A stretch of 64,000 bases of DNA from a virus. Its lineage: Duplodnaviria; Caudoviricetes. The translations under genes were made by a program, and so were the position numbers. The notes under the pieces are model-generated. The model ran no database searches and had not been told where the DNA came from. It saw only the letters and a program-made list of their open reading frames with translations. The stretch is taken from the IMG/VR virus record IMGVR_UViG_3300009183_000045; one strand, given 5' to 3'. This document shows positions 1,832-45,602 of this stretch, piece by piece; positions within the stretch are counted from its first letter, which is position 1; each line of letters begins with the position of its first letter.

Positions 1832-2200
1832 TCACTTCTTCTTTCTTTTTTTAGATTTTGGTGCAGTTTCTGGGATAAGTTTTTGTACTTCTCTTTTATA
1901 TATTTTGTCGGCTAAATGTTTTAAAAATTCAGCAACTTCAAAAGAGGAACAAACGTTGATGATCCTAGATTCTGCATATTTAATGTCTGATTCCGGCCAA
2001 TCAGGATACAAGTAGTGGAGTAATTCATGAAAGGCTGTAGGAATTATATCTCTTCTATAATCTAATTCTATGTCAGTCCAGTAACAAAGACCTACAGAAT
2101 TGTTCATTTTTCTCAAATTAAAAAATTCTGGAGGTTTAGTTTTGACTAAATCTAAGGTTTTCTCGTAGAGATCTTTAACCTCTTTGTTTGTCAATTTCAT
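1832..2200 (-). CDS. small hypothetical protein with zincin-like HExxH motif
   Basis: 122-aa ORF containing AFHELLHYLYPDWPE, with a basic C-terminal tail. Confidence 0.55.
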   Translation of the reverse strand: MKLTNKEVKDLYEKTLDLVKTKPPEFFNLRKMNNSVGLCYWTDIELDYRRDIIPTAFHELLHYLYPDWPESDIKYAESRIINVCSSFEVAEFLKHLADKIYKREVQKLIPETAPKSKKRKKK

Positions 2201-2207
2201 TGAAAAA

Positions 2208-2540
2208 TTACTTTTTCTTTTTCTTGATATTGGCTTCTTTGGTTAAGACTGCCTGTGCTGCGGTTTTTTTGGCAGTCTCAAAACGACTCTCTGCAGCTTC
2301 AATAGTGTTACAAGTCCAACCCATGTTTCCCCATTGGGACCCACTAGGATATAGTTCACCGGGTTCAATGTAATTCCCATCAATGGTTATTCCATTATGA
2401 GAAGATATAATCACTACCTCAAAATGAGGATTCCTGGAGGAAGTAACTGGGTGTCTCTTATAAATTGCAACATTTTCTTCTCTCTTCAGCAGAAGGTGCT
2501 TAAATCCCTTTTTGATAAACTTTTCTGGTACGAGCTTCAT
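2208..2540 (-). CDS. hypothetical protein
   Basis: 110-aa ORF tightly packed with its neighbour and preceded by a promoter-like motif. Confidence 0.7.
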   Translation of the reverse strand: MKLVPEKFIKKGFKHLLLKREENVAIYKRHPVTSSRNPHFEVVIISSHNGITIDGNYIEPGELYPSGSQWGNMGWTCNTIEAAESRFETAKKTAAQAVLTKEANIKKKKK

Positions 2541-2575
2541 ATAATTATTATCTATGGTTTTGGGTTTGATGTCAC
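2541..2575 (-). promoter_or_regulatory. putative promoter GTGACA-N17-GATAAT-N6-ATG
   Basis: Sigma70-like spacing; identical geometry to the motif at 44916-44950. Confidence 0.5.
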
Positions 2576-2601
2576 GAGAAAATGGTGTATCATTGTGATA
2601 T

Positions 2602-3411
2602 ATGAATTTTAAAGAGTTGGTTCTTTTGGAAAGGGGATTTGAAGATGTAATTTTTTCTGAAAAGGATCATTCTTATAAAATAAGAGGAGAAAAGGCTTAC
2701 TCTTCTGTTACTCAACTGTTAAAAAAGTATGAAAAACCTTTTGATACTAAAAAATTGTCGAAGATTGTTGCAAACCGGCAAGGGGTTCTTGAAGAAGATA
2801 TTGTACACTTGTGGGATTTTAAAAGAGATTATGCATGTTTGAAGGGTACTTTGTTCCATTTGTATGTAGAAAATTTCTTACAGAAGAAAAGGTCTCCTTT
2901 AAACAAAAATGAAATTGAAGATTTTGTTAAAAATCATAGAGAGTATATTACTACAGAGGAATTTTATAATGACATAGCCTCTTATATTTCCAATTTTAAT
3001 AATTTTTATGAATGGTGGAAAGCAGATCATATTTTAGTGAGGCCAGAGTTAGTGGTTGGAGATGTTGCTACTGGAGTTTGTGGATGTGTAGATAACCTTT
3101 CTTTGAATTGTAAAACCGGTGAATTGGTTATATTTGATTACAAGAGTAACAAAGAAATTAAACAAAAAAGCAAAGACAGACTTCTGGGTATGTTAAGTCA
3201 CTTGGAGGCCACTACATTAGTAAAATATTCACTTCAAATGGCACTTTATTCTGAAATTATAGAAAGAAATACTCCTTTTAAAATTTTTGATAATAAAATT
3301 GTTTGGGTTGGGGGTTCTTCCTATGAATTAATTTCATGTCTTGATATGAGACAAGAGGCTAAAGCTTTACTAAATCAGGTTGAATTGCAAAAAGGTGTTG
3401 ATATAAAATGA
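2602..3411 (+). CDS. PD-(D/E)XK (RecB/Cas4-like) exonuclease
   Basis: SSVTQLL, GTLFHLYVE, RPE..V, CGCVDNL, IFDYKS and YSLQMALY motifs. Confidence 0.85.
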   Translation: MNFKELVLLERGFEDVIFSEKDHSYKIRGEKAYSSVTQLLKKYEKPFDTKKLSKIVANRQGVLEEDIVHLWDFKRDYACLKGTLFHLYVENFLQKKRSPLNKNEIEDFVKNHREYITTEEFYNDIASYISNFNNFYEWWKADHILVRPELVVGDVATGVCGCVDNLSLNCKTGELVIFDYKSNKEIKQKSKDRLLGMLSHLEATTLVKYSLQMALYSEIIERNTPFKIFDNKIVWVGGSSYELISCLDMRQEAKALLNQVELQKGVDIK

Positions 3412-3433
3412 CAATTCTTTAATATAAAATACT

Positions 3434-3829
3434 ATGAAATTTAAATATACAAACTCTAACAATGAGGAGGCTTTTTTTGAGGCAGTTCCGTTGACTACAG
3501 AACTTTATACAGAGTTGATAGAAATAGACAAAGAATTTCTTCAAAATGTTGCAGAAGGCAAAGAAGTTTTTTTTAAGGATGAGCCCTTGATAGAAGCGGC
3601 GAAAAGTTTGTTAATCTCTTTTGGTAAAGGAAAAGAAATTCAACCTTCTTCTCTTTCAGATACTCATGAAGTTCTATTAGTGACTTCAAAAACAATTCTC
3701 AAAGAGGCAGAAGAATATAAGAAAACCAATTACACACCCAAAAGAATTGTAAGAGATAAAATGATCACTAGTAAGATTAGATCCTTCAAAAAAGAAAAAA
3801 TGGAATTAAATTTTGATTTGGCCCACTAA
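3434..3829 (+). CDS. hypothetical protein
   Basis: 131-aa ORF filling the intergenic space, no recognised motif. Confidence 0.7.
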   Translation: MKFKYTNSNNEEAFFEAVPLTTELYTELIEIDKEFLQNVAEGKEVFFKDEPLIEAAKSLLISFGKGKEIQPSSLSDTHEVLLVTSKTILKEAEEYKKTNYTPKRIVRDKMITSKIRSFKKEKMELNFDLAH

Positions 3830-3852
3830 AAAGGTAAATATTGTTACAACAT

Positions 3853-4731
3853 ATGTCATTGCTCAACGCCTATACACAAATTTTAAATGAAAGTGGAAAA
3901 GACCACGAAGTTAAAGGAGCCGTAAAAAAGGGTCAAGATTTTGCCTCGGGTTTAAAGGTTAATAAACAAGAAGGACCCAAGGTTGAATCTCCTAAAGAAG
4001 ATAAAGAACATTCTGTAGATGGTGAAAACAATGGCGTTCCTAAGAAGTTAGCCAAAGAATCTTCTAATCCCTTTGATGCTATTTACAATAAAATCTTAGC
4101 CCAAGAAAATTGGGAAGCTGAAGAAGAAGCTAACGAACAACCTAACTTTGGATCACCCACTGGTCATGATTCCAACAATATGGAGTTTAGTGGTGACAAC
4201 TCTTCCGGAGAGGGTGAAGTTGAATTAACAGATGATTCGGATGAACATCCAATGAGCCAGGTCCTCTCTGCCTTAAAGGCCGCTGTCGAAGCTTTAGAAA
4301 AAGTTATCAGTCCAGAGAGTGGTGAAGAAGGTGAAGGTGAAGAAGAAGGTGAAGAAGGTGAAGAACACGAAGAGGATGAAAGTGACGAAGAAGAAAAAGA
4401 AGAACATCAAGAATTTGGTGAATCAACCGAGGAAGACGACGATGACGATGACGATGAAGATGAAGACGGTGATGTTAAAAAGGAAGAAGTAGATGCTCAA
4501 GTTTTGGGCCATGCTTTAATTGACTTGGAAAAATTGGCAGCCAGCTTAACGAGTCCTAAAAACCAAGTTGTTAAGGGAGCAGTGCCAGTTAATAAAGGAA
4601 AGGCTCAAGTGCCTAAGGGTGTTAAGACAACTCCAAGACCCACAGAATTAAAGGGCAAGGGCGAAAGTCTTCAAAGCAAAAAAGTTGACACTGGTTATGT
4701 CAAGAAAGACAAAAACTGGTACGATCAGTAA
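3853..4731 (+). CDS. highly acidic low-complexity protein (possible virion internal/scaffold-type protein)
   Basis: ATG at 3853 preferred over TTG 3841; TAAATA at 3835-3840. Long E/D tract at about 4320-4480 and a Lys-rich C-terminus. Function is not recognisable. Confidence 0.7.
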   Translation: MSLLNAYTQILNESGKDHEVKGAVKKGQDFASGLKVNKQEGPKVESPKEDKEHSVDGENNGVPKKLAKESSNPFDAIYNKILAQENWEAEEEANEQPNFGSPTGHDSNNMEFSGDNSSGEGEVELTDDSDEHPMSQVLSALKAAVEALEKVISPESGEEGEGEEEGEEGEEHEEDESDEEEKEEHQEFGESTEEDDDDDDDEDEDGDVKKEEVDAQVLGHALIDLEKLAASLTSPKNQVVKGAVPVNKGKAQVPKGVKTTPRPTELKGKGESLQSKKVDTGYVKKDKNWYDQ

Positions 4732-4748
4732 ATTTGATTAAACAAATT

Positions 4749-4778
4749 AAAAACTCCGCTTAAGCGGAGTTTTTTTTT
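4749..4778 (+). terminator. intrinsic terminator
   Basis: AAAAACTCCGC-TTAA-GCGGAGTTTTT perfect hairpin followed by a T run, just after the 4731 stop. The flanking A run could make it bidirectional. Confidence 0.85.
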
Positions 4779-4789
4779 CTAAATATATC

Positions 4790-39731: not shown

Positions 39732-40538
39732 TTATATTACTAATATTCCATTTTTCAATGCAAATTCTTCTCTTTTTGGTTCTGTTGTTTCTGGAGATAA
39801 TATATCTTCTAGAGATCCTTCTGGACTAGGATGGGATAGTAAGGTGTTTTTGCGTGGTGTTTCTTTATTTTCTTTTTTAGTGGTAACAACCTCTAGAGCT
39901 TCTGCAATGGCCGGAAATAATTGGTTAAAACTTTCCTTGATAGAATTAGCTATTGTCCTGTGTTCAAGTTGAGTATCTACTTTGCACCTCAAATCAAAAT
40001 AATGGATCCAGGAACGAATGTTTCCGGACATATAAAGAGTTGTTTGTGTGCAAAGAGGTAAAACTTTACGAGCACTTTCTCTTGCTCCTCCTTTGGATAT
40101 TATATATTCATACAGATCAATGCCATCTGTTACATGATCTATTACTCTTTTAATATCTTCCTTGCTTAGTGGTAAAATATCTGTACTAGATTGACGATTT
40201 TTTTCTGCCTGAGCTCTAATATCGAAGGATTCAATTCCGGTTACCATACTGTATCGCTGGCTAAATTCTTGAAAAGCAAAAGACTTGTGTCTAATAATTT
40301 GAGCTGATATGTCCCTGCTAGTTTGAATTTCAACCGTCATTGAAGCTTGCTCAAAGATGGACCAATGGCCGTGTTCTATACAATATTTAATTAATTTTGA
40401 AGCAGATTCTAAGTTTAATTGATTAGATGGATTTGAAACTCTGGCACAATATACAATAAATTCTTCTGCGGTTAAAAATCTTGTATTATCTTCAGATCTT
40501 ATAAAGGGTTGAGTAACTGCTACTACTTTGGTGTACAT
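39732..40538 (-). CDS. thyX: flavin-dependent thymidylate synthase
   Basis: ARVSNP, HGHWSIFEQ, QIIRHKSFAFQEFSQRY, E.AR.VLP, SGN.RSW.H...R and Q.EHR. Confidence 0.95.
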   Translation of the reverse strand: MYTKVVAVTQPFIRSEDNTRFLTAEEFIVYCARVSNPSNQLNLESASKLIKYCIEHGHWSIFEQASMTVEIQTSRDISAQIIRHKSFAFQEFSQRYSMVTGIESFDIRAQAEKNRQSSTDILPLSKEDIKRVIDHVTDGIDLYEYIISKGGARESARKVLPLCTQTTLYMSGNIRSWIHYFDLRCKVDTQLEHRTIANSIKESFNQLFPAIAEALEVVTTKKENKETPRKNTLLSHPSPEGSLEDILSPETTEPKREEFALKNGILVI

Positions 40539-41332
40539 ATACCTTTAAATTTTAAAATGTTATGCTTAATAAGTTCTAAATTTGAAGAAGAAATTTCTGT
40601 ATCAAATAACTCTACCATTTTTTGAGGAGATTTGTCTAAAAGAGTTTCAATGTCATCATATGATTTACCAGAAATACCTGCCATAACGGGGTGGGATGTA
40701 TCTATACTATCAATAAAATTATATCTCATTGCTACATAATGACTAAATTCTGTAGGGACACCACATCCTAATAAATGATGTGGTTTATTTTTATTAATAA
40801 TACCCATTCCCACTAAGTGATTTATTAATTTAATGCGACCTACATTAAATCTATAAGCATTTGAATTGACATAATGTTCTTGTGTAGATTCTAGAAAATA
40901 ATCATAACCAAAACTAATTGCTATCTTATCAGCCTTTTCATTCATGAACCGATAACACTTTACAAGTTCTTGTAAAGTTTTGCCTTGCAAGACACCAATC
41001 TTTTTACCTGATAATTGAGACAAATCAAAATTATTTGTAAAAGATTCAAATGAACTAATATTGTGATCACAATCTTGCCATACGTCAGGCACTATATATT
41101 CATCTGGTTGAATTTCTAAAAGCCATTTGTAATATTTTTTTGAATCAAATGCTACACCTAATTCAAAAAGACTGCAATCCATAATAATTTGACGACCACT
41201 AATTTTAGCTTTCTTAAAAAATTCTAAATATGCAGGGTATTGTTCCAGTAGATGAACTAAACAATAATCATAATCTGTCATTGTTTGTATCTCGTCCATA
41301 ATTGACATTGGAGCTTCGTGTGCTATTCTCAT
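40523..41332 (-). CDS. dpdA: TGT-fold transglycosylase, DpdA-like (7-deazaguanine DNA base exchange)
   Basis: Motif series IIMDCSLFE / VPDV / GVLQG / AISFG / HHLLGCG / IDSIDTSHP parallels TGT DSGGFQ / LD / GIVQG / AIGG / YLMGVG / DMFDCVMP. No tRNA-TGT Zn site. Co-located with folE2, queD and queE. Confidence 0.7.
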   Translation of the reverse strand: MRIAHEAPMSIMDEIQTMTDYDYCLVHLLEQYPAYLEFFKKAKISGRQIIMDCSLFELGVAFDSKKYYKWLLEIQPDEYIVPDVWQDCDHNISSFESFTNNFDLSQLSGKKIGVLQGKTLQELVKCYRFMNEKADKIAISFGYDYFLESTQEHYVNSNAYRFNVGRIKLINHLVGMGIINKNKPHHLLGCGVPTEFSHYVAMRYNFIDSIDTSHPVMAGISGKSYDDIETLLDKSPQKMVELFDTEISSSNLELIKHNILKFKGICTPK

Positions 41333-41353
41333 ATTGTTTTAATAATAACCCGA

Positions 41354-43693
41354 CTATCCGAATAAATCAAACAAATCTGTCTGAACTTCTCTTCCTGTTT
41401 GTGGAAGTCTCCATCCAATACAATCATAAAACCTCTCTAGTGGAGGAGATACTATCTTGTCAAACATGGTTTGATAATCGGGTTTGACGTGTTCATAAAG
41501 TTCTGTAGGATATCTTTCCATGAAAGCCATACTTTTGTAATTGAAAGCGTTCTTGCTTGTGTAGAAATATTTCAATTTCATGGCACTTCCTATAGATTCA
41601 TACTGATGATCCAATTTATAATGCTTGAGGAGTTTATTAAAGTGAATAGCACTCTTGGCTTGGAGAGTTGTTCCCTTTCCTATTTGTCCAAAAGCGTCTA
41701 TTTTGGCTTCATATTTTTCATAATCAGAAATTTTGGTTCTAATTGAAATGTTTTCCACCGGCATACTACAAAAGTCTTCATGAGCTTTCTTAAATATGGT
41801 GTCTGCTTTCTTTTTATCTTGAGCCATCATTGCAGATTCAATCACACTTTTGATTAATTCTTTAACTTCCTTCGAGATTGTAGAGCGAGCTATCTCAACT
41901 CCTACATATTTGAAAGGTTTCTTCGGAATCTTGCCTTCTTTGTCTATAATGTGTAGTATATAGCGCTTCTTAGCATCAAATAAAGCTACATCACAAATTG
42001 TTTCTTGTTTAAAAACAAACCGTGGATCACTTACTTTCAGTTCTTTTCGAGCCCATATCTTGATTTGTTCATTGAGATATACGTCAATTTCCCCGATTAC
42101 CTTCCTGGCTCCTTCTGTAATCTTGCCGTTTTCCTGCAGATTGATGTTTAGGGTATTGAGGATGGGTTCGATGGAAAAGTAAGCAGAATCAGTATCTCCG
42201 TAGCGATACAGGTCGCCTTTCTTCCCGGTAAACCCTTGCTGCCGGGCATATTCTAAAACAATTTCTGGAGCTTGCTTGGCCACTGTTTGGCCTGTTAGAG
42301 TAATGCTAGCGGAATGATCAATGTCAAAAAGCGGAGAATATTTCTGTGCAAATACACCATAAATGGAGTTTAGAATCAACTTAAACACATTTTGTTGTGT
42401 GTCAAGGTTAAGAATCTCGGCTTCAAGCCGTAATTTTTCCTCTTTATCTGTTAATGTCTCTGCAATATCTGTTAATCTTGAGGCTTCTCTCTGAGTTTGC
42501 ACTCGTTCATCATACAATCTATCGATTAAAGCAGGCACAACACCACGAAATTTCTGTGTATACAATACATTATACTTAGAAATTGACAATTCTTCTTTCT
42601 GTACCAGGCGATTAAACTTTTCTTCAGAGAGAATTACTGTTTTTTCATTGGAAAGACGAATTGTATACTCATTATTTTCTATTTCGACTATTTTTCCTAT
42701 CTTTGTCTCCGGAGAAATGTTCAAAGTGATGATTGTATTTGGATATAGACTGTTTGCATCATAGCTTACCACAGATTTACACAGACCTCTCTCGGGTTCG
42801 TGTACATATCCACCTACATATTCATCTCTGATGCCGTCATTCTTGAATGTAGGGATGCGATATCCCTGTAAAAGAGCTTGATGAGCAACTGCTCCGGTGA
42901 TCATAGAGACCTTTCCGAGAGATTGTTCGAAGGGAATGAAACCTTTATAGGACAAAGCTCTAATCAATTTGAGAAATTTAAGCTTCTCTTCCATCTTTGC
43001 TAGCAGTCTTACATCTTGTATGTTGTAATCTACAAATAAATCCCAATCAGATTCTGAGAGAGCTGCTAGATTGGTGCCACCAACATCTGTTTTGCCTTCA
43101 TTCAATTCATATTCTGAAATATAATTCAAAGAATAAGACTCTCTGTCGCCGCGGGAGAAGGTTTTATACACCTCCATGTAGTCAATATTACTCACTCCAC
43201 GAATATACCACCTATCAATCATCTTACCCATCTTGTTCATTGCTACATTCTCTCGATAGTAGATAGCCCTTACCGGAGATAGACGAGAAGTCTCCTCTTG
43301 GCCCAAGAGTTTATTAATGCGATTCATTACATAAGGAACGTCAAATCCCTCAGAGTTCCAACCAACCATCATATCTGGAGGATCTTTCTCCCAGAAACTC
43401 AAAAAAGCATTTAATAATTCTGTTTCTTTTTTACAATATGTGTAAACAACATTATCTTCTTTAGGTTTATAGGGTTTCAATCCCCAAGAATAAAATTTTT
43501 GACTGATGGAATCAAAAATTGTAATTAAATTGATTGGGTCATTGGCTATTTTAGGCTCCGGAAATTCTCCTTGTTGACTATAACAAGAATTAAAGTATGA
43601 AGTCCAACACTGTTTATCTTCATCCCATACTTCATAATCTTCAAACATGTTGCTATTACGAAATTCTCCTAATTTTATTGTGGATTCAGCCAT
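41354..43693 (-). CDS. gp43: family B DNA polymerase, C-terminal fragment (ExoII-ExoIII plus polymerase domain)
   Basis: GEFPEP..A.DPINLIT, GWNSEGFDVPY, YNIQDV, YDANSLYP, QNVFKLILNSIYG, YGDTDS, KKRY, YVGVE and C-terminal clamp-binding-like QTDLFDLFG. ExoI is absent. Confidence 0.95.
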   Translation of the reverse strand: MAESTIKLGEFRNSNMFEDYEVWDEDKQCWTSYFNSCYSQQGEFPEPKIANDPINLITIFDSISQKFYSWGLKPYKPKEDNVVYTYCKKETELLNAFLSFWEKDPPDMMVGWNSEGFDVPYVMNRINKLLGQEETSRLSPVRAIYYRENVAMNKMGKMIDRWYIRGVSNIDYMEVYKTFSRGDRESYSLNYISEYELNEGKTDVGGTNLAALSESDWDLFVDYNIQDVRLLAKMEEKLKFLKLIRALSYKGFIPFEQSLGKVSMITGAVAHQALLQGYRIPTFKNDGIRDEYVGGYVHEPERGLCKSVVSYDANSLYPNTIITLNISPETKIGKIVEIENNEYTIRLSNEKTVILSEEKFNRLVQKEELSISKYNVLYTQKFRGVVPALIDRLYDERVQTQREASRLTDIAETLTDKEEKLRLEAEILNLDTQQNVFKLILNSIYGVFAQKYSPLFDIDHSASITLTGQTVAKQAPEIVLEYARQQGFTGKKGDLYRYGDTDSAYFSIEPILNTLNINLQENGKITEGARKVIGEIDVYLNEQIKIWARKELKVSDPRFVFKQETICDVALFDAKKRYILHIIDKEGKIPKKPFKYVGVEIARSTISKEVKELIKSVIESAMMAQDKKKADTIFKKAHEDFCSMPVENISIRTKISDYEKYEAKIDAFGQIGKGTTLQAKSAIHFNKLLKHYKLDHQYESIGSAMKLKYFYTSKNAFNYKSMAFMERYPTELYEHVKPDYQTMFDKIVSPPLERFYDCIGWRLPQTGREVQTDLFDLFG

Positions 43694-44487
43694 ATATTGC
43701 GCAGATTTGTTAAATTTTTATGTTTACAAGGAGATATATTCTCTATCAAATAAGATATAAATTCCTCTTCAGACATATTAGCGTATCTCTTACCCGAAAT
43801 CTCCCTTTGATTGGTTTTTTTACCCTTTTTGGCTTCTGATATCTTTCGTCCTCTTTCAATGTGGTTAACATTTTGGTTGTGCAAAGATTTTTTTAATCTA
43901 TTTTTTTTATCCTCAGCTGATAATTGAGATATATTTAATTTAGCCTTGCTGGATAGTTGCTGCCTCACCTCTAATGTATATCCTGCAGAGACTACCTTGG
44001 ACCTATCCCAGTGGCCGTAAATATATTTATTTTTTTTAATATTCACCCTATTGCCACATCCACATAAACAAATTGGTAAATTTTCTAATTTAATCTGATT
44101 TAAAATTAAATTTCTTTTTTGGTGGGATTCTGAGACCTTAAGGCGTGTCTCTGGATTTTTCATTGGATGATTGATTGAATATTCTTTCCTGGCAATTTCA
44201 AATTGTCTAGAAGTAGTTTTTCTATTTTTAGAATTATGAAAACACATTCGATTAAAAGCAGATGATAATTTAGTCTTTATCTGAATATTGTCTTTTTTAT
44301 ACATTTTACACAAAAGCCAATGAGCTATAAAATGTTCCCTGGCGGTGAGTAAACTAATATTGGAAGTTTCATTAGAACCCCCTAAACATTTAGGAATTAT
44401 ATGATGTCTTTCATAATATTGAAGAGTTAATTTAATTCTAGTTGTTCCTCTAGTACAGATTTTGAGATATATAGACTTATAATTCAC
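43675..44487 (-). mobile_element. free-standing MobE-like HNH homing endonuclease splitting the polymerase gene
   Basis: YERHHIIPKCLGGSN..SNI..LTAREHFIAHWLL, NUMOD3-like ETRLKVSES and RKISEAKKG, CLCGCG...GH. GTG start; 3' end overlaps the gp43 C-fragment start by 19 nt. Confidence 0.92.
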
Positions 44488-44505
44488 ATATATAATTATA
44501 AGTCT
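44473..44505 (-). promoter_or_regulatory. 12-bp hairpin enclosing the HNH start codon, with a late-promoter-like TAATTA in its 5' arm
   Basis: AGACTTATAATT-atatatGTG-AATTATAAGTCT; TAATTA at 44498-44493, 5 nt before the GTG. Confidence 0.7.
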
Positions 44506-44516
44506 CTAAGTCCCGG

Positions 44517-44915
44517 TTAAGATTTTTTTCTTATTTTAATTTTATGATCGTCCTTGTATCTCATACCGTACGTTTCAATGTCCCAAAAGTAAATCTTTAA
44601 AGGATTTGCCAGTGCTTCTGGCTTATGGATATCATCTTTGAATGAAGACAACAAAAATTCTTGTTCACAACTGAGATTGTGAAATATTCTTTTAATGGCC
44701 GTCTCGTTTACAAATTTATTACGTTCAAATTGATTTTTGAACTTAACTTTTTTTAGAGGTGTATTAAAAATAGAGACCGCATCTGTGCCGTATGCAGATT
44801 CTACGAACAGATGCGGTTCATAACTGGATTCTAATTTGATTCGTTTACCATTTTCATTCCACGTCCACAGATGGACACACTGTTTTGCGGAATCATAAAA
44901 GACATTTCGATACAT
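44517..44915 (-). CDS. gp43: family B DNA polymerase, N-terminal fragment (N-domain plus ExoI)
   Basis: MYRNVFYD....VHLWTW.ENGKRI....YEP.LF and PLKIYFWDIETY (ExoI DxE), then 16 extra aa and TAA. Confidence 0.9.
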   Translation of the reverse strand: MYRNVFYDSAKQCVHLWTWNENGKRIKLESSYEPHLFVESAYGTDAVSIFNTPLKKVKFKNQFERNKFVNETAIKRIFHNLSCEQEFLLSSFKDDIHKPEALANPLKIYFWDIETYGMRYKDDHKIKIRKKS

Positions 44916-44950
44916 CTCAATATTTTCATATCAATGTGATGGAATGTCAC
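44916..44950 (-). promoter_or_regulatory. putative promoter GTGACA-N17-GAAAAT-N6-ATG
   Basis: Same -35 hexamer, spacer and distance to the ATG as 2541-2575. Confidence 0.5.
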
Positions 44951-44951
44951 T

Positions 44952-45602
44952 CTATTTTACTTTCCATTTAACATCAAACTCGCTCCAATCTTCTGGAACA
45001 TCTTCAAATTTATTTTCTGTTAAAACTCCCCATCCAGATGAGCATTTTTTATAATTATCATCCAAGAAGACTTCAAAATTACTTAATTTGTTTTGAAATG
45101 TTTTAGATTTATTTGTGTAGATATTAGGTCTTCCGTCTTTTTCTACTTCACATTGTATTGTTTCTATAGATTTGTTATCTATTAGCAATTTTAAAGTGGT
45201 TAAAACTAAAAAATCACACCCCTGTAAATCACTTATATAAGTTTTAACACTTTTAATATCATTTTCTTCTAAAAAATTTATTAAATTTACAGTAGGCACC
45301 ACAATTTTTTCTTGGGTTTTAATTAAATGATATAAATTACTTTCTTTATTAGGTTCTAACAATGAACTAGAATCACCGTTGTTGCTTGATATGTAGAAAT
45401 ACATACTTTCATTATGTCTATCACACACAGCAGCATTAATTATTTTTACATGGGGGTGGGAGTTAAATCTTTGAAATAAAATTCTACAAAAATTTGGATT
45501 GGCTTCAAATATAAAAACTTTTTCATAATCATCAATCAAACCAGAAACACCATTTCCGTGATGGCCTCCTACATAAATTAAAACATTTTCGAATTTTTTC
45601 AT
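44952..45602 (-). CDS. FkbM-family SAM methyltransferase
   Basis: IYVGGHHG, FIFEANP, INAAV, N..SSSLL, V.TV.L and SDLQGCD..VL. Confidence 0.85.
   Translation of the reverse strand: MKKFENVLIYVGGHHGNGVSGLIDDYEKVFIFEANPNFCRILFQRFNSHPHVKIINAAVCDRHNESMYFYISSNNGDSSSLLEPNKESNLYHLIKTQEKIVVPTVNLINFLEENDIKSVKTYISDLQGCDFLVLTTLKLLIDNKSIETIQCEVEKDGRPNIYTNKSKTFQNKLSNFEVFLDDNYKKCSSGWGVLTENKFEDVPEDWSEFDVKWKVK

What the first reader, a model, noticed from the sequence alone, without database searches (positions are those of the whole stretch)
41354..44915. DNA polymerase split by an HNH gene next to the proofreading ExoI motif, with no intein or intron to rejoin it
Seen: gp43 is encoded as a 132-aa piece ending after DIETY+16 aa and a 779-aa piece with its own ATG, separated by a MobE-like HNH ORF. 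Only 29 nt separate the first stop from the HNH start, and the HNH 3' end overlaps the second piece, leaving no room for a ribozyme core. Neither piece has intein termini (no Cys/Ser1, TxxH or HN). ExoI (D-x-E) is on one chain, ExoII and ExoIII on the other. Established: Aeh1 nrdA is split by mobE into two chains that reassemble, and known split T4-type gp43A/B enzymes are cut elsewhere (fingers region). Inference: a heterodimeric polymerase whose exonuclease active site is assembled in trans, a split site I do not know of in this family.
Basis: partly seen in the sequence, partly recalled or inferred. Interest (0 to 1): 0.85.

Follow-up and report, generated by a model that had tools for sequence, protein, structure and literature searches.

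The report
Polymerase split by a self-clamping endonuclease cassette
A lake phage's DNA polymerase gene is cut in two next to its proofreading site by a mobile endonuclease gene that brings two short, oppositely charged peptide ends, which most likely clip the two protein halves back together without any splicing.

Summary
On the minus strand lie a 132-aa polymerase N piece (ends DIETY plus 16 aa), a 270-aa MobE-like HNH gene, and a 779-aa C piece. The gap is 29 nt and the HNH/C overlap is 19 nt. Independent assemblies and a 21-kb contig from another lake sample show the same layout.

No intron or intein was detected. The interruption is a conserved mobile cassette: basic tail, hairpin, HNH gene, acidic 37-aa head.
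- It replaces 9 nt of an otherwise ~99% identical intact allele.
- It is scattered over the polymerase tree, needing at least 6 changes.
- Its own tree disagrees with the polymerase tree.
- Tail and head are under purifying selection.

The head occurs in 46 polymerase clusters. In 44 it is N-terminal; in two uninterrupted polymerases, and in cultured phage BUDD, tail and head are fused in frame.

Models place the DIE strand of the N piece into the exonuclease sheet of the C piece. Tail and head form one small domain.

This matches the Aeh1 NrdA/MobE "tails" system, so it is a new variant of a known kind: new gene site, catalytic residues in trans, and a whole family. Binding and activity are untested.

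The parts
44517..44915 (-). Polymerase N piece (132 aa): N-terminal domain plus the first strand of the 3'-5' exonuclease domain.
   Evidence: ORF list. PHROG 262 DNA polymerase, profile 8-118 region, E 3.6e-11. It is 86-91% identical to the first 116 aa of intact relatives.
44574..44582 (-). ExoI catalytic motif D112-I113-E114.
   Evidence: Translation. Invariant in 53 aligned sequences, including 14 split N pieces.
44520..44567 (-). Cassette-borne basic C-terminal tail GMRYKDDHKIKIRKKS. With the preceding Tyr, which is native here, the 17-aa segment scored has pI 10.1.
   Evidence: Absent from intact alleles. The motif x[YF]Kxx..[IV]K[IV]RKK is conserved in 19 split alleles. pN 0.02 vs pS 0.50 against L001. 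All tail residues lie in the modelled interface.
44473..44505 (-). Perfect 12-bp hairpin (AGACTTATAATT / AATTATAAGTCT) enclosing the GTG start of the HNH gene. Its 5' arm carries a T4-late-promoter-like TATAATTA.
   Evidence: Sequence. Folds at -15.9 kcal/mol, z -4.6. The helix is conserved in 7 loci with some compensatory pairs, and relatives have TATAAATA in the 5' arm.
43675..44487 (-). Free-standing MobE-type HNH homing endonuclease gene (270 aa).
   Evidence: phrog_655 homing endonuclease, E 2e-39. 42-44% identical to T-even MobE over 127 aa. dN/dS 0.10-0.30. All full-length relatives examined, down to 37% identity, sit at this same polymerase site.
43583..43693 (-). Cassette-borne acidic N-terminal head of the C piece (37 aa, MAESTIKLGEFRNSNMFEDYEVWDEDKQCWTSYFNSC, pI 4.1). 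The first 19 nt overlap the HNH gene.
   Evidence: Absent from intact alleles. pN 0.05-0.09 vs pS 0.52-0.80. The profile finds it in 46 polymerase clusters. It contacts the tail in the complex model.
41354..43582 (-). Native part of the polymerase C piece: rest of the exonuclease domain (ExoII 43340-43357, ExoIII 43013-43027), then palm, fingers and thumb (motif A 42740-42760, B 42356-42382, C 42185-42202).
   Evidence: Pfam PF03104 E 1.5e-17 and PF00136 E 3.3e-23. RB69 gp43 is the best solved relative, E 2e-57. Motif coordinates.

Best explanation
This is the T4-type family B DNA polymerase (gp43) of an uncultured freshwater myovirus on a contig of about 215 kb. The gene has been invaded, in the loop right after the ExoI Asp-x-Glu strand, by a mobile cassette. 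The cassette has four parts:
- 16 codons for a lysine-rich tail, then a stop codon;
- a short spacer whose hairpin buries the start of the next gene;
- a MobE-type HNH homing endonuclease gene;
- 37 codons for an acidic head, whose ATG sits inside the 3' end of the endonuclease gene.

Shown:
- The cassette is inherited and transferred as one unit.
- It replaces about 9 nt of the intact allele.
- Tail, head and endonuclease are all under purifying selection.

Inferred:
- The endonuclease cuts cassette-free alleles at the conserved ExoI-coding sequence, and repair copies the cassette in (homing).
- The two polymerase chains are translated separately and are not spliced at the RNA or protein level.
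- They reassemble non-covalently. The DIE strand of the N piece slots between two strands of the C piece's exonuclease sheet.
- The basic tail and acidic head pair into one small beta-beta-alpha-beta-beta domain that clamps the junction.
- Proofreading would then use catalytic residues from two chains.
For: Anatomy.

Intact versus split alleles:
- Intact relatives read DIETY-SP-GEFPEP, while split ones carry tail and head.
- L006 (split) and L009 (intact) are near-identical up to DIETYS and again from FPEP.
- Split alleles are scattered in a 119-taxon tree, needing at least 6 changes. Each has a close intact sister.

The cassette moves as a unit:
- Window versus L006: HEG 68%, head 84%, tail 71%, but polymerase only 57-64%. 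Against L003 the pattern is reversed.
- HEG data reject the polymerase-like grouping, p-AU 3e-5.

Selection:
- Tail pN 0.02 vs pS 0.50; head pN 0.05-0.09 vs pS 0.5-0.8.
- N-piece core dN/dS 0.04. DIE is invariant.

Charge: tail pI ~10, head pI ~4-5, the same polarity as the essential Aeh1 NrdA tails (PMC3045599).

Spread:
- The head profile finds 46 polymerase clusters among 1.84 billion proteins.
- Two natural polymerases and phage BUDD carry tail and head fused in frame. The two ends are therefore compatible with lying next to each other.

Complex model:
- ipSAE 0.81 versus 0.00 for the best of 3 controls. That mark was reached by 58 of 80 solved complexes and 2 of 110 mismatched pairs. These counts hold only roughly, because my own alignments were used.
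- The three runs share at least 92% of contacts, and partner pLDDT is at least 85.
- N-piece residues 105-131 touch C-piece residues 1-12, 16, 19-23, 30, 36-40, 51-63 and 104-112.

Structure models:
- In the AF2 model of fused P0298 the module has pLDDT 81-87, and the rest superposes on the RB69 gp43 exonuclease domain (Z 29.9, rmsd 1.9 A, 265 residues).
- The module alone folds at pLDDT 81.
Against: - Nothing here is biochemical. Association, exonuclease activity and HEG cleavage are all untested.
- The complex score may come from the model's memory of single-chain RB69/T4 gp43 structures. It shows likeness to those, not binding.
- No RNA data exist for this locus, so RNA splicing is excluded only by sequence arguments.
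- No Shine-Dalgarno sequence or other obvious initiation signal precedes the C-piece ATG. How it is translated is unknown.
- The whole genome is not held, so a second polymerase outside the 64-kb window cannot be ruled out.
Confidence: 0.8

Rival explanations
1. The tail and head are the two halves of an extremely reduced split intein. They ligate the two chains by protein trans-splicing and leave a normal one-chain polymerase.
For: - The head is 36 residues followed by a position that is Cys, Ser or Thr in most clusters, like an IntC plus its +1 nucleophile.
- 14 of the 50 best structural matches of the module model are inteins, aligned from their first to their last residues. Examples: 5bkh Z 3.8, rmsd 2.8, 53 aligned; 8cpo Z 3.1, rmsd 2.1, 53 aligned.
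- HEG-split genes with real split inteins exist in aquatic metagenomes (PMC2677866).
Against: - Tail plus head total only 53 aa, against at least about 125 aa for known minimal inteins (my own knowledge).
- The first tail residue varies (Y, D, F, A, P, R), so there is no conserved nucleophile.
- There is no TxxH block.
- The last head residue is a conserved Ser, not Asn, Gln or Asp.
- No Pfam intein or Hint match was found even at E<=10.
- A profile search of PDB sequences finds no intein.
- All structural Z scores are below 4, a range where chance arrangements are common.
Confidence: 0.03
2. The interruption is a group I (or other self-splicing) intron with the HNH gene in a loop. The tail and head are read-through of intron sequence, and the mRNA is spliced to an intact gene.
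For: HNH-encoding group I introns in phage DNA polymerase genes are well known (SPO1 and Bastille, cited). With tail and head codons counted as intron, about 190 nt of non-HEG sequence would be available.
Against: - No Intron_gpI or any other ribozyme match in 41000-45300 at E<=10.
- Tail and head change mostly at synonymous sites, so they are constrained as protein.
- The head ORF with its ATG is conserved in 44 clusters.
- Natural fused alleles translate tail and head in frame as part of the polymerase.
- The only conserved RNA structure found is a hairpin over the HEG start.
Confidence: 0.02
3. The N piece is a leftover that is no longer used. The 779-aa chain works alone, without ExoI and hence with poor or no proofreading, or another polymerase in the genome does the work.
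For: - The head's C-terminal part (WTSYFNSCY) loosely resembles the native ExoI strand (IYFWDIETY) without the acidic residues.
- The whole genome could not be searched.
Against: - The N piece is intact at 132-135 aa in all 13 split clusters found.
- DIE is invariant.
- dN/dS between two split lineages is 0.04, as low as for the C piece.
- The complex model puts the real DIE strand, not the head, into the exonuclease sheet.
- There is no second family B polymerase in the window.
Confidence: 0.05
4. The ~55-aa tail-plus-head module came first, as an ordinary in-frame insertion domain of some polymerases. The endonuclease gene later inserted into its hairpin turn. On this view the fused forms are ancestral rather than products of HEG loss. 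This rival concerns origin only. The mechanism today would be the same as in the best explanation.
For: - Fused forms exist in three divergent polymerases (P0296, P0298, BUDD).
- The module folds as one unit on its own.
- Dassa et al. proposed the analogous route for inteins invaded by free-standing HEGs.
Against: - Fused forms are rare (2 of 46 clusters).
- Module and HEG are gained and lost together between ~99% identical alleles.
- The HEG 3' end and the head start overlap in every split locus examined, which points to long co-evolution.
- The head is too short for a reliable tree, so the direction cannot be decided here.
Confidence: 0.25

Closest known systems
Aeromonas phage Aeh1 nrdA-a / mobE / nrdA-b, 'genes in pieces' with cassette-derived tails (Friedrich et al. 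2007, as cited in PMC3045599; Crona et al. 2011, PMC3045599)
   Same: - A MobE-type HNH gene lies inside an essential replication-related gene, between two adjacent beta strands of the active-site domain.
- The HEG 3' end overlaps the downstream piece (14 nt in Aeh1, 19 nt here).
- A hairpin lies upstream of the HEG.
- The upstream piece has a basic C-terminal tail and the downstream piece an acidic N-terminal head. Both are absent from uninterrupted homologues.
- Catalytic residues are divided between the chains.
   Different: - A different host gene: DNA polymerase rather than ribonucleotide reductase.
- The tails are not demonstrably homologous. 'YEVYEDE' vs 'YEVWDED' and 'FKVKKS' vs 'IKIRKKS' look alike, but the HMM E-value is only 0.04-0.17 for a search space of one.
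- Aeh1 is a single case whose tails matched nothing. Here the module is a family of 46 clusters with fused derivatives.
- In Aeh1 the tails were needed for dimerisation of heterodimers, not for heterodimer formation. The role here is only modelled.
Split gp43A/gp43B DNA polymerases of Aeromonas phages 25 and 44RR (Petrov, Ratnayaka and Karam 2010, as summarised in PMC2988022)
   Same: A T4-type family B polymerase encoded as two cistrons whose products co-purify and are active. In phage 25 a free-standing HEG lies between them.
   Different: - That split is in the palm/fingers region, corresponding to C-piece residues ~415/421 here (PHROGs 2062 and 1918). It is not in the exonuclease active site.
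- The HEG there is a GIY-YIG seg type.
- An untranslated intercistronic sequence and a group I intron are involved.
- No conserved tail/head module has been described.
'Fractured genes': split inteins separated by a free-standing HEG in aquatic metagenomes (Dassa et al. 2009, PMC2677866)
   Same: - The gene order is the same: N part, hairpin, free-standing HEG, C part, in replication and nucleotide-metabolism genes of phage-like environmental DNA.
- The head has the length of an IntC and is followed by Cys, Ser or Thr in most clusters.
- There is a weak structural likeness of the module to intein termini.
   Different: - There is no ~100-aa IntN, no catalytic blocks and no terminal Asn.
- The HEG is an HNH type, not Vsr-like.
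- The product is expected to stay as two chains.
T4 topoisomerase gp39 / mobA / gp60
   Same: According to Crona et al., it is split by a Mob-type HEG, with tail-like extensions of similar charge distribution.
   Different: Not examined here. Its tails are untested, and gene 60 also involves translational bypassing.

Membership tests
Family B (T4 gp43-type) DNA polymerase | Exonuclease motifs ExoI (DxE), ExoII (Nx2-3FD) and ExoIII (Yx3D) | tested here: met
   DIE is on the N piece. NSEGFD and YNIQD are on the C piece. All are invariant in the alignments.
Family B (T4 gp43-type) DNA polymerase | Polymerase motifs A (DxxSLYP), B (KxxxNSxYG) and C (YGDTDS), and curated profile matches | tested here: met
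   DANSLYP, KLILNSIYG and YGDTDS are present. PF00136 scores 82.7 bits against a cut-off of 23, and PF03104 scores 64.3 bits against 23. RB69 gp43 is matched at E 2e-57.
Family B (T4 gp43-type) DNA polymerase | Single polypeptide carrying both activities | tested here: not met
   There are two ORFs in different frames, separated by an 813-nt gene. It is a split member of the family.
MobE-type free-standing HNH homing endonuclease | HNH catalytic motif and similarity to characterised Mob proteins | tested here: met
   The HHIIPKCLGG...N...H motif is present. phrog_655 matches at E 2e-39. It is 42-44% identical to T-even MobE over 127 aa, E 2e-20. The Pfam HNH models score below their cut-offs (18.4 vs 27.5 bits).
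MobE-type free-standing HNH homing endonuclease | Sporadic presence or absence among close relatives at a fixed site in a conserved gene | tested here: met
   7 of 120 listed relatives are split, the tree needs at least 6 changes, and ~99% identical intact sisters exist. All HEG relatives examined sit at the same site.
MobE-type free-standing HNH homing endonuclease | Site-specific cleavage of the cassette-free allele, and gene conversion | not testable with these tools
   This needs in vitro cleavage and mixed-infection assays.
HEG-split gene reassembled by cassette-derived tails (Aeh1 NrdA type) | Basic C-terminal tail and acidic N-terminal head, both absent from uninterrupted homologues | tested here: met
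   pI is 10.1 for the tail and 4.1 for the head. Both are absent from 110 intact relatives.
HEG-split gene reassembled by cassette-derived tails (Aeh1 NrdA type) | Tails retained in the mature proteins and required for activity | not testable with these tools
   Only indirect support is available: purifying selection and modelled tail-head contacts.
Split intein ('fractured gene') | N-intein with Cys/Ser/Ala at position 1 and a TxxH block | tested here: not met
   The tail is 16-19 aa, its first residue is variable, and there is no TxxH.
Split intein ('fractured gene') | C-intein of about 35 aa ending in (H)N, followed by Cys, Ser or Thr | tested here: not met
   The length (36 aa) and the +1 Cys/Ser/Thr fit in most clusters. 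The terminal residue is a conserved Ser, and the residue before it is variable.
Split intein ('fractured gene') | HINT fold | tested here: inconclusive
   The module model gives only Z 2.4-3.8 to inteins, but 14 of the top 50 rows are inteins aligned end to end. Foldseek against the PDB gave nothing at E<=0.001. The AlphaFold DB search gave no row better than E 0.4. There was no sequence-profile match.
Group I intron with an HEG ORF | Conserved ribozyme core (P3-P9) detectable by covariance model | tested here: inconclusive
   No RF00028 match in 41000-45300 at E<=10. An 813-nt ORF in a loop could hide a core from the model. The protein-level constraint on tail and head argues against an intron.

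The most novel reading that the evidence does not exclude
The tail-plus-head module is the fossil of a split intein. It has lost its middle and all splicing chemistry, but kept the tight, charge-driven association of its two ends. It now travels with an HNH homing endonuclease as a portable 'cut-and-clamp' cassette. That cassette can break an essential enzyme inside its active site and hold it together non-covalently. When the endonuclease is lost, it leaves a small extra domain in the polymerase, as in phage BUDD.
Probability: 0.2. Interest if true: 0.8.

Novelty: new variant of a known kind. Interest (0 to 1): 0.62.

Why it matters
Crona et al. (2011) showed for one phage gene, Aeh1 nrdA, that peptides brought in by a homing endonuclease can neutralise the fragmentation of an essential enzyme. 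They proposed that this might be general. Their tails matched nothing else, so the idea stayed anecdotal.

Here the same solution appears in another enzyme, the replicative DNA polymerase, and differs in three ways:
- The break is next to the proofreading metal ligands.
- The tail/head module is conserved and selected, and is shared by 46 polymerase clusters.
- It has natural endonuclease-free, fused derivatives.

That gives a comparative data set and clear constructs for several tests:
- how short tails reassemble a split active site;
- whether fidelity is affected;
- how selfish endonucleases avoid killing their hosts;
- whether such modules descend from inteins.

A small natural heterodimerising pair that tolerates insertion in an enzyme core could also be useful for split-protein engineering.

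Tried and rejected
- **Rfam scan.** The E-value scan of 41000-45300 gave only chance-level snoRNA/sRNA rows and no intron.
- **Pfam on head and tail.** At E<=10 there were no families for the head alone or for the tail region.
- **Phage database.** tblastn of the N piece against cultured phages found no match at 1e-5. No cultured phage holds the same HEG cassette; the best match is ~31% identity.
- **S-CAM1.** It looked like a head-bearing polymerase in tblastn. It is an ordinary uninterrupted gene, and the alignment extension was spurious.
- **Homology of Aeh1 NrdA tails to this module.** HMM E-values were 0.04-0.17 with a search space of one. This remains a lead only.
- **Duplicated ExoI strand in the head.** HMMER extends an RB69 alignment over the head, but the domain E-value is 0.33 and rests on the native FPEP...ITxxD part. 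The complex model does not use the head in the ExoI slot.
- **Whole-genome search for a second polymerase.** No genome is held for this window.
- **Expression and splicing from public runs.** No RNA holder is listed. A metatranscriptome from a holder's sample laid nothing.
- **Joined, cassette-free form in the laid runs.** None was seen among their contigs. Contigs cannot show absence.
- **MAFFT with N-piece ends.** It repeatedly misaligned tails onto the beta-3 strand or onto the head. Tails were therefore left out of the fold alignments, and the tail part of the AF2 models rests on two sequences.
- **Module fold searches.** Foldseek against the PDB gave nothing at E<=0.001, and the AlphaFold DB clusters gave no row better than E 0.4.
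- **PDB sequence-profile search with the module.** It returned only Kelch-like 'EVYD..kW' hairpins.
- **Polymerase tree test.** The polymerase data alone do not reject a (window, L001, L006) clade, p-AU 0.16. Only the HEG data reject the alternative grouping, and the groups were named after seeing the identity table.
- **Literature.** Five full-text searches found no description of this split site. The library lacks most subscription journals.

Full report
**Observation.** The minus strand of 41354-44915 holds three ORFs in three different frames.
- A 132-aa ORF (44517-44915) ends ...PLKIYFWDIETY-GMRYKDDHKIKIRKKS-TAA.
- A 29-nt spacer follows.
- A 270-aa ORF (43675-44487) has a GTG start where relatives have ATG.
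- A 779-aa ORF (41354-43693) has its ATG 19 nt inside the end of the middle ORF.

The outer ORFs together tile the PHROG DNA polymerase profile phrog_262. The N piece covers profile 8-128 and the C piece covers 128-845. The C piece passes Pfam's exonuclease and polymerase models, and its best solved relative is RB69 gp43. ExoI (D112, E114) is on the N piece. ExoII, ExoIII and motifs A, B and C are on the C piece.

The middle ORF is a MobE-type HNH homing endonuclease.
- It matches phrog_655 at E 2e-39.
- It is 42-44% identical to T-even MobE over its first 127 residues.
- At the DNA level it is 76-80% identical to mobE over 122 nt.

**Not an assembly artefact.** The same N piece / HNH / C piece layout is found in independent assemblies from other samples (L001-L007, L011-L014). 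One 21,433-nt contig of a different run covers 43307-44916 with 32 substitutions and no gap. The runs that hold the stretch are freshwater or lake metagenomes.

**No intron or intein detected.**
- An Rfam scan at E<=10 finds no group I intron or other ribozyme.
- Pfam finds nothing in the tail or the head, even at E<=10.
- The tail's first residue varies and there is no TxxH block. The head ends in a conserved Ser, not Asn.

**What the interruption is.** A search with the C piece returned many uninterrupted relatives of about 857 aa, up to 87% identical. They read DIETY-SP-GEFPEP across the site. The same search returned other 779-782-aa alleles that share the extra 37-39 N-terminal residues.
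- The 16-aa tail and the 37-aa head are absent from all 110 intact relatives.
- They are present, with recognisable motifs, in every split allele. The tail motif is x[YF]Kxx..[IV]K[IV]RKK. The head motif is M.E..I.L.[ED]F......YEVWD[ED]....W..Y..SCY.
- A split allele (L006) and an intact allele (L009) are nearly identical at the DNA level. They match up to ...GACATAGAAACATAYAGT (DIETYS) and again from TTTCC.GAACC (FPEP). The cassette replaces 9 nt.
- In a 119-sequence polymerase tree the split alleles are scattered and need at least six gains or losses. Each has a close intact sister.

**The cassette has its own history.**
- Window versus L006: HEG 68%, head 84% and tail 71% identical, but polymerase only 57-64%.
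- Window versus L003 is the reverse: polymerase 67-68%, but HEG 53% and head 51%.
- The HEG alignment rejects the polymerase-like grouping at p-AU 3e-5. The polymerase data alone do not reject the HEG-like grouping (p 0.16), and the groups were chosen after seeing the identity table.
- HEG relatives down to 37% identity all sit at this same site.

**Tail and head are translated and selected.** Between the window and L001, the tail has pN 0.02 vs pS 0.50 and the head has pN 0.05 vs pS 0.52. Between the window and L006, the head has pN 0.09 vs pS 0.80. The HEG has dN/dS 0.10-0.30. The N-piece core has dN/dS 0.04 between two split lineages, and its DIE is invariant in 53 sequences. These figures argue against an intron, against a dead N piece and against a decaying endonuclease.

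**Breadth.** A 38-position profile of nine heads was searched against 1.84 billion representative proteins and gave 48 hits. Two are repeat proteins and probably spurious. The other 46 begin like polymerase C pieces, and wherever they are long enough they match the polymerase HMM.
- They span polymerase clades well outside the window's own.
- Two of them (P0296, 891 aa; P0298, 1003 aa) are uninterrupted polymerases. There the tail runs straight into the head...DIEV-ASGCKHSKSHEIKIRKDNK-IQLVFLADFELEKTEEYEVWDEE...SCY-FETSEFPKP.
- The cultured Xanthomonas phage BUDD has a more diverged fused version.
- The two ends of the module can therefore be joined by a short linker, so they must lie next to each other in the folded protein.

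**Models.** A two-chain model of the window's pieces scored ipSAE 0.81, against 0.00 for the best of three controls.
- The tool's mark was reached by 58 of 80 solved complexes and 2 of 110 mismatched pairs. These counts hold only roughly, because my own alignments were used.
- The three runs share at least 92% of contacts, and partner pLDDT is at least 85.
- N-piece residues 107-113 (the DIE strand) pair with C-piece residues 56-63 and 106-110.
- The whole tail (116-131) lies in the interface with head residues 1-12, 16, 19-23, 30 and 36-40.
- Single-chain gp43 structures are solved, so this pass may reflect memory of the fold. It shows that the pieces fit the known fold, not that they bind.

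An AlphaFold2 model of the natural fused protein (P0298:100-500) has the module at pLDDT 81-87.
- Its elements are strand LIKIKK (tail), strand ESKMT, helix INDFENN, strand YKVWD and strand RWT.
- The rest superposes on RB69 gp43 residues 99-384 with Z 29.9, rmsd 1.9 A and 265 aligned residues.
- Folded alone, the 59-residue module keeps the same beta-beta-alpha-beta-beta order at mean pLDDT 81.
- In split alleles the chain break falls in the turn between the tail strand and the first head strand.

The tail has pI about 10 and the head pI about 4-5. MAFFT even aligns HKIKIRKK onto YEVWDEDK. That is the pattern expected for two strands with the same alternation and opposite charge.

**Regulation of the endonuclease.**
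- A perfect 12-bp hairpin (44473-44505) encloses the GTG start.
- It folds at -15.9 kcal/mol, z -4.6.
- The helix recurs in seven loci, with compensatory changes at three pairs of its two main stems.
- A TATAAATA element, the T4 late-promoter consensus (my own knowledge), lies in the 5' arm of most relatives. The window has TATAATTA.
- This parallels the controls reported for Aeh1 mobE (PMC3045599, Figure 5 legend).

**Comparison with what is known.** The nearest precedent is Aeh1 nrdA, split by mobE.
- There, too, the HEG overlaps the downstream piece.
- The upstream piece has a basic tail (pI 10.4) and the downstream piece an acidic one (pI 3.8).
- Deleting the tails lowers activity about 2000-fold.
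- The Aeh1 tails contain FKVKKS and YEVYEDE, reminiscent of IKIRKKS and YEVWDED here. The HMM match is not significant, so I treat homology as a lead only.

T4-type polymerases split into gp43A and gp43B are known from Aeromonas phages 25 and 44RR. They are split in the palm/fingers region, with a GIY-YIG HEG, an untranslated spacer and an intron. 'Fractured genes' have the same gene order but carry real split inteins. Five full-text searches found no description of a split at ExoI or of this module.

**A possible origin.**
- The module model has no significant structural match.
- In an exhaustive comparison with 48,161 solved chains, 14 of the 50 best rows are inteins. They are aligned from their first to their last residue, but all at Z 2.4-3.8.
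- The head has the length of an IntC and is usually followed by Cys, Ser or Thr.
- No sequence method supports intein homology, and the catalytic residues are missing.
- I therefore rate active splicing as very unlikely. Descent from a collapsed split intein is an open, interesting possibility.

**Verdict.** The locus is best described as a split T4-type polymerase. Its two chains are most likely held together by a tail-head mini-domain supplied by the invading MobE-like cassette. It is a new variant of the Aeh1 NrdA kind, not a new category.

**Main gaps.**
- There is no biochemistry and no RNA data.
- How C-piece translation initiates is unknown; no Shine-Dalgarno sequence precedes any of the three cistrons.
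- There is no view of the rest of the genome.

Noticed in passing
window 44916-44960 and the equivalent upstream regions in L003, L005, L011 and L013: None of the three cistrons has a Shine-Dalgarno sequence. In several relatives a TATAAT box sits 6-8 nt before the N-piece ATG, which would suit leaderless or near-leaderless mRNAs.
   Followed up: no
L012:3376-3500: In this distant split allele the HNH reading frame is open upstream of the called ATG and encodes the HHIIPKC motif. The position of the usual ATG-AAT-TAT start reads CTG-GAC-TAT. The endonuclease may have lost its start codon while the split and the tail/head persist.
   Followed up: partly
L017 (Xanthomonas phage BUDD, ON758385) 2021-4789: A cultured phage encodes a 922-aa uninterrupted polymerase with a diverged, in-frame copy of the tail-head module after DIET. 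No endonuclease gene is present there. It is a ready experimental handle.
   Followed up: partly
window 39732-41332: Downstream of the polymerase lie a 269-aa ORF and a ThyX-type thymidylate synthase; Pfam Thy1 matches the equivalent genes of relatives. Other first readers flagged the 269-aa ORF as TGT/DpdA-like. I did not test that.
   Followed up: no
C-piece residues 415/421: PHROGs 2062 and 1918 are separate families for the two halves of polymerases split at the already known palm/fingers site. Their junction maps to residues 415/421 of this C piece, which is uninterrupted there.
   Followed up: no
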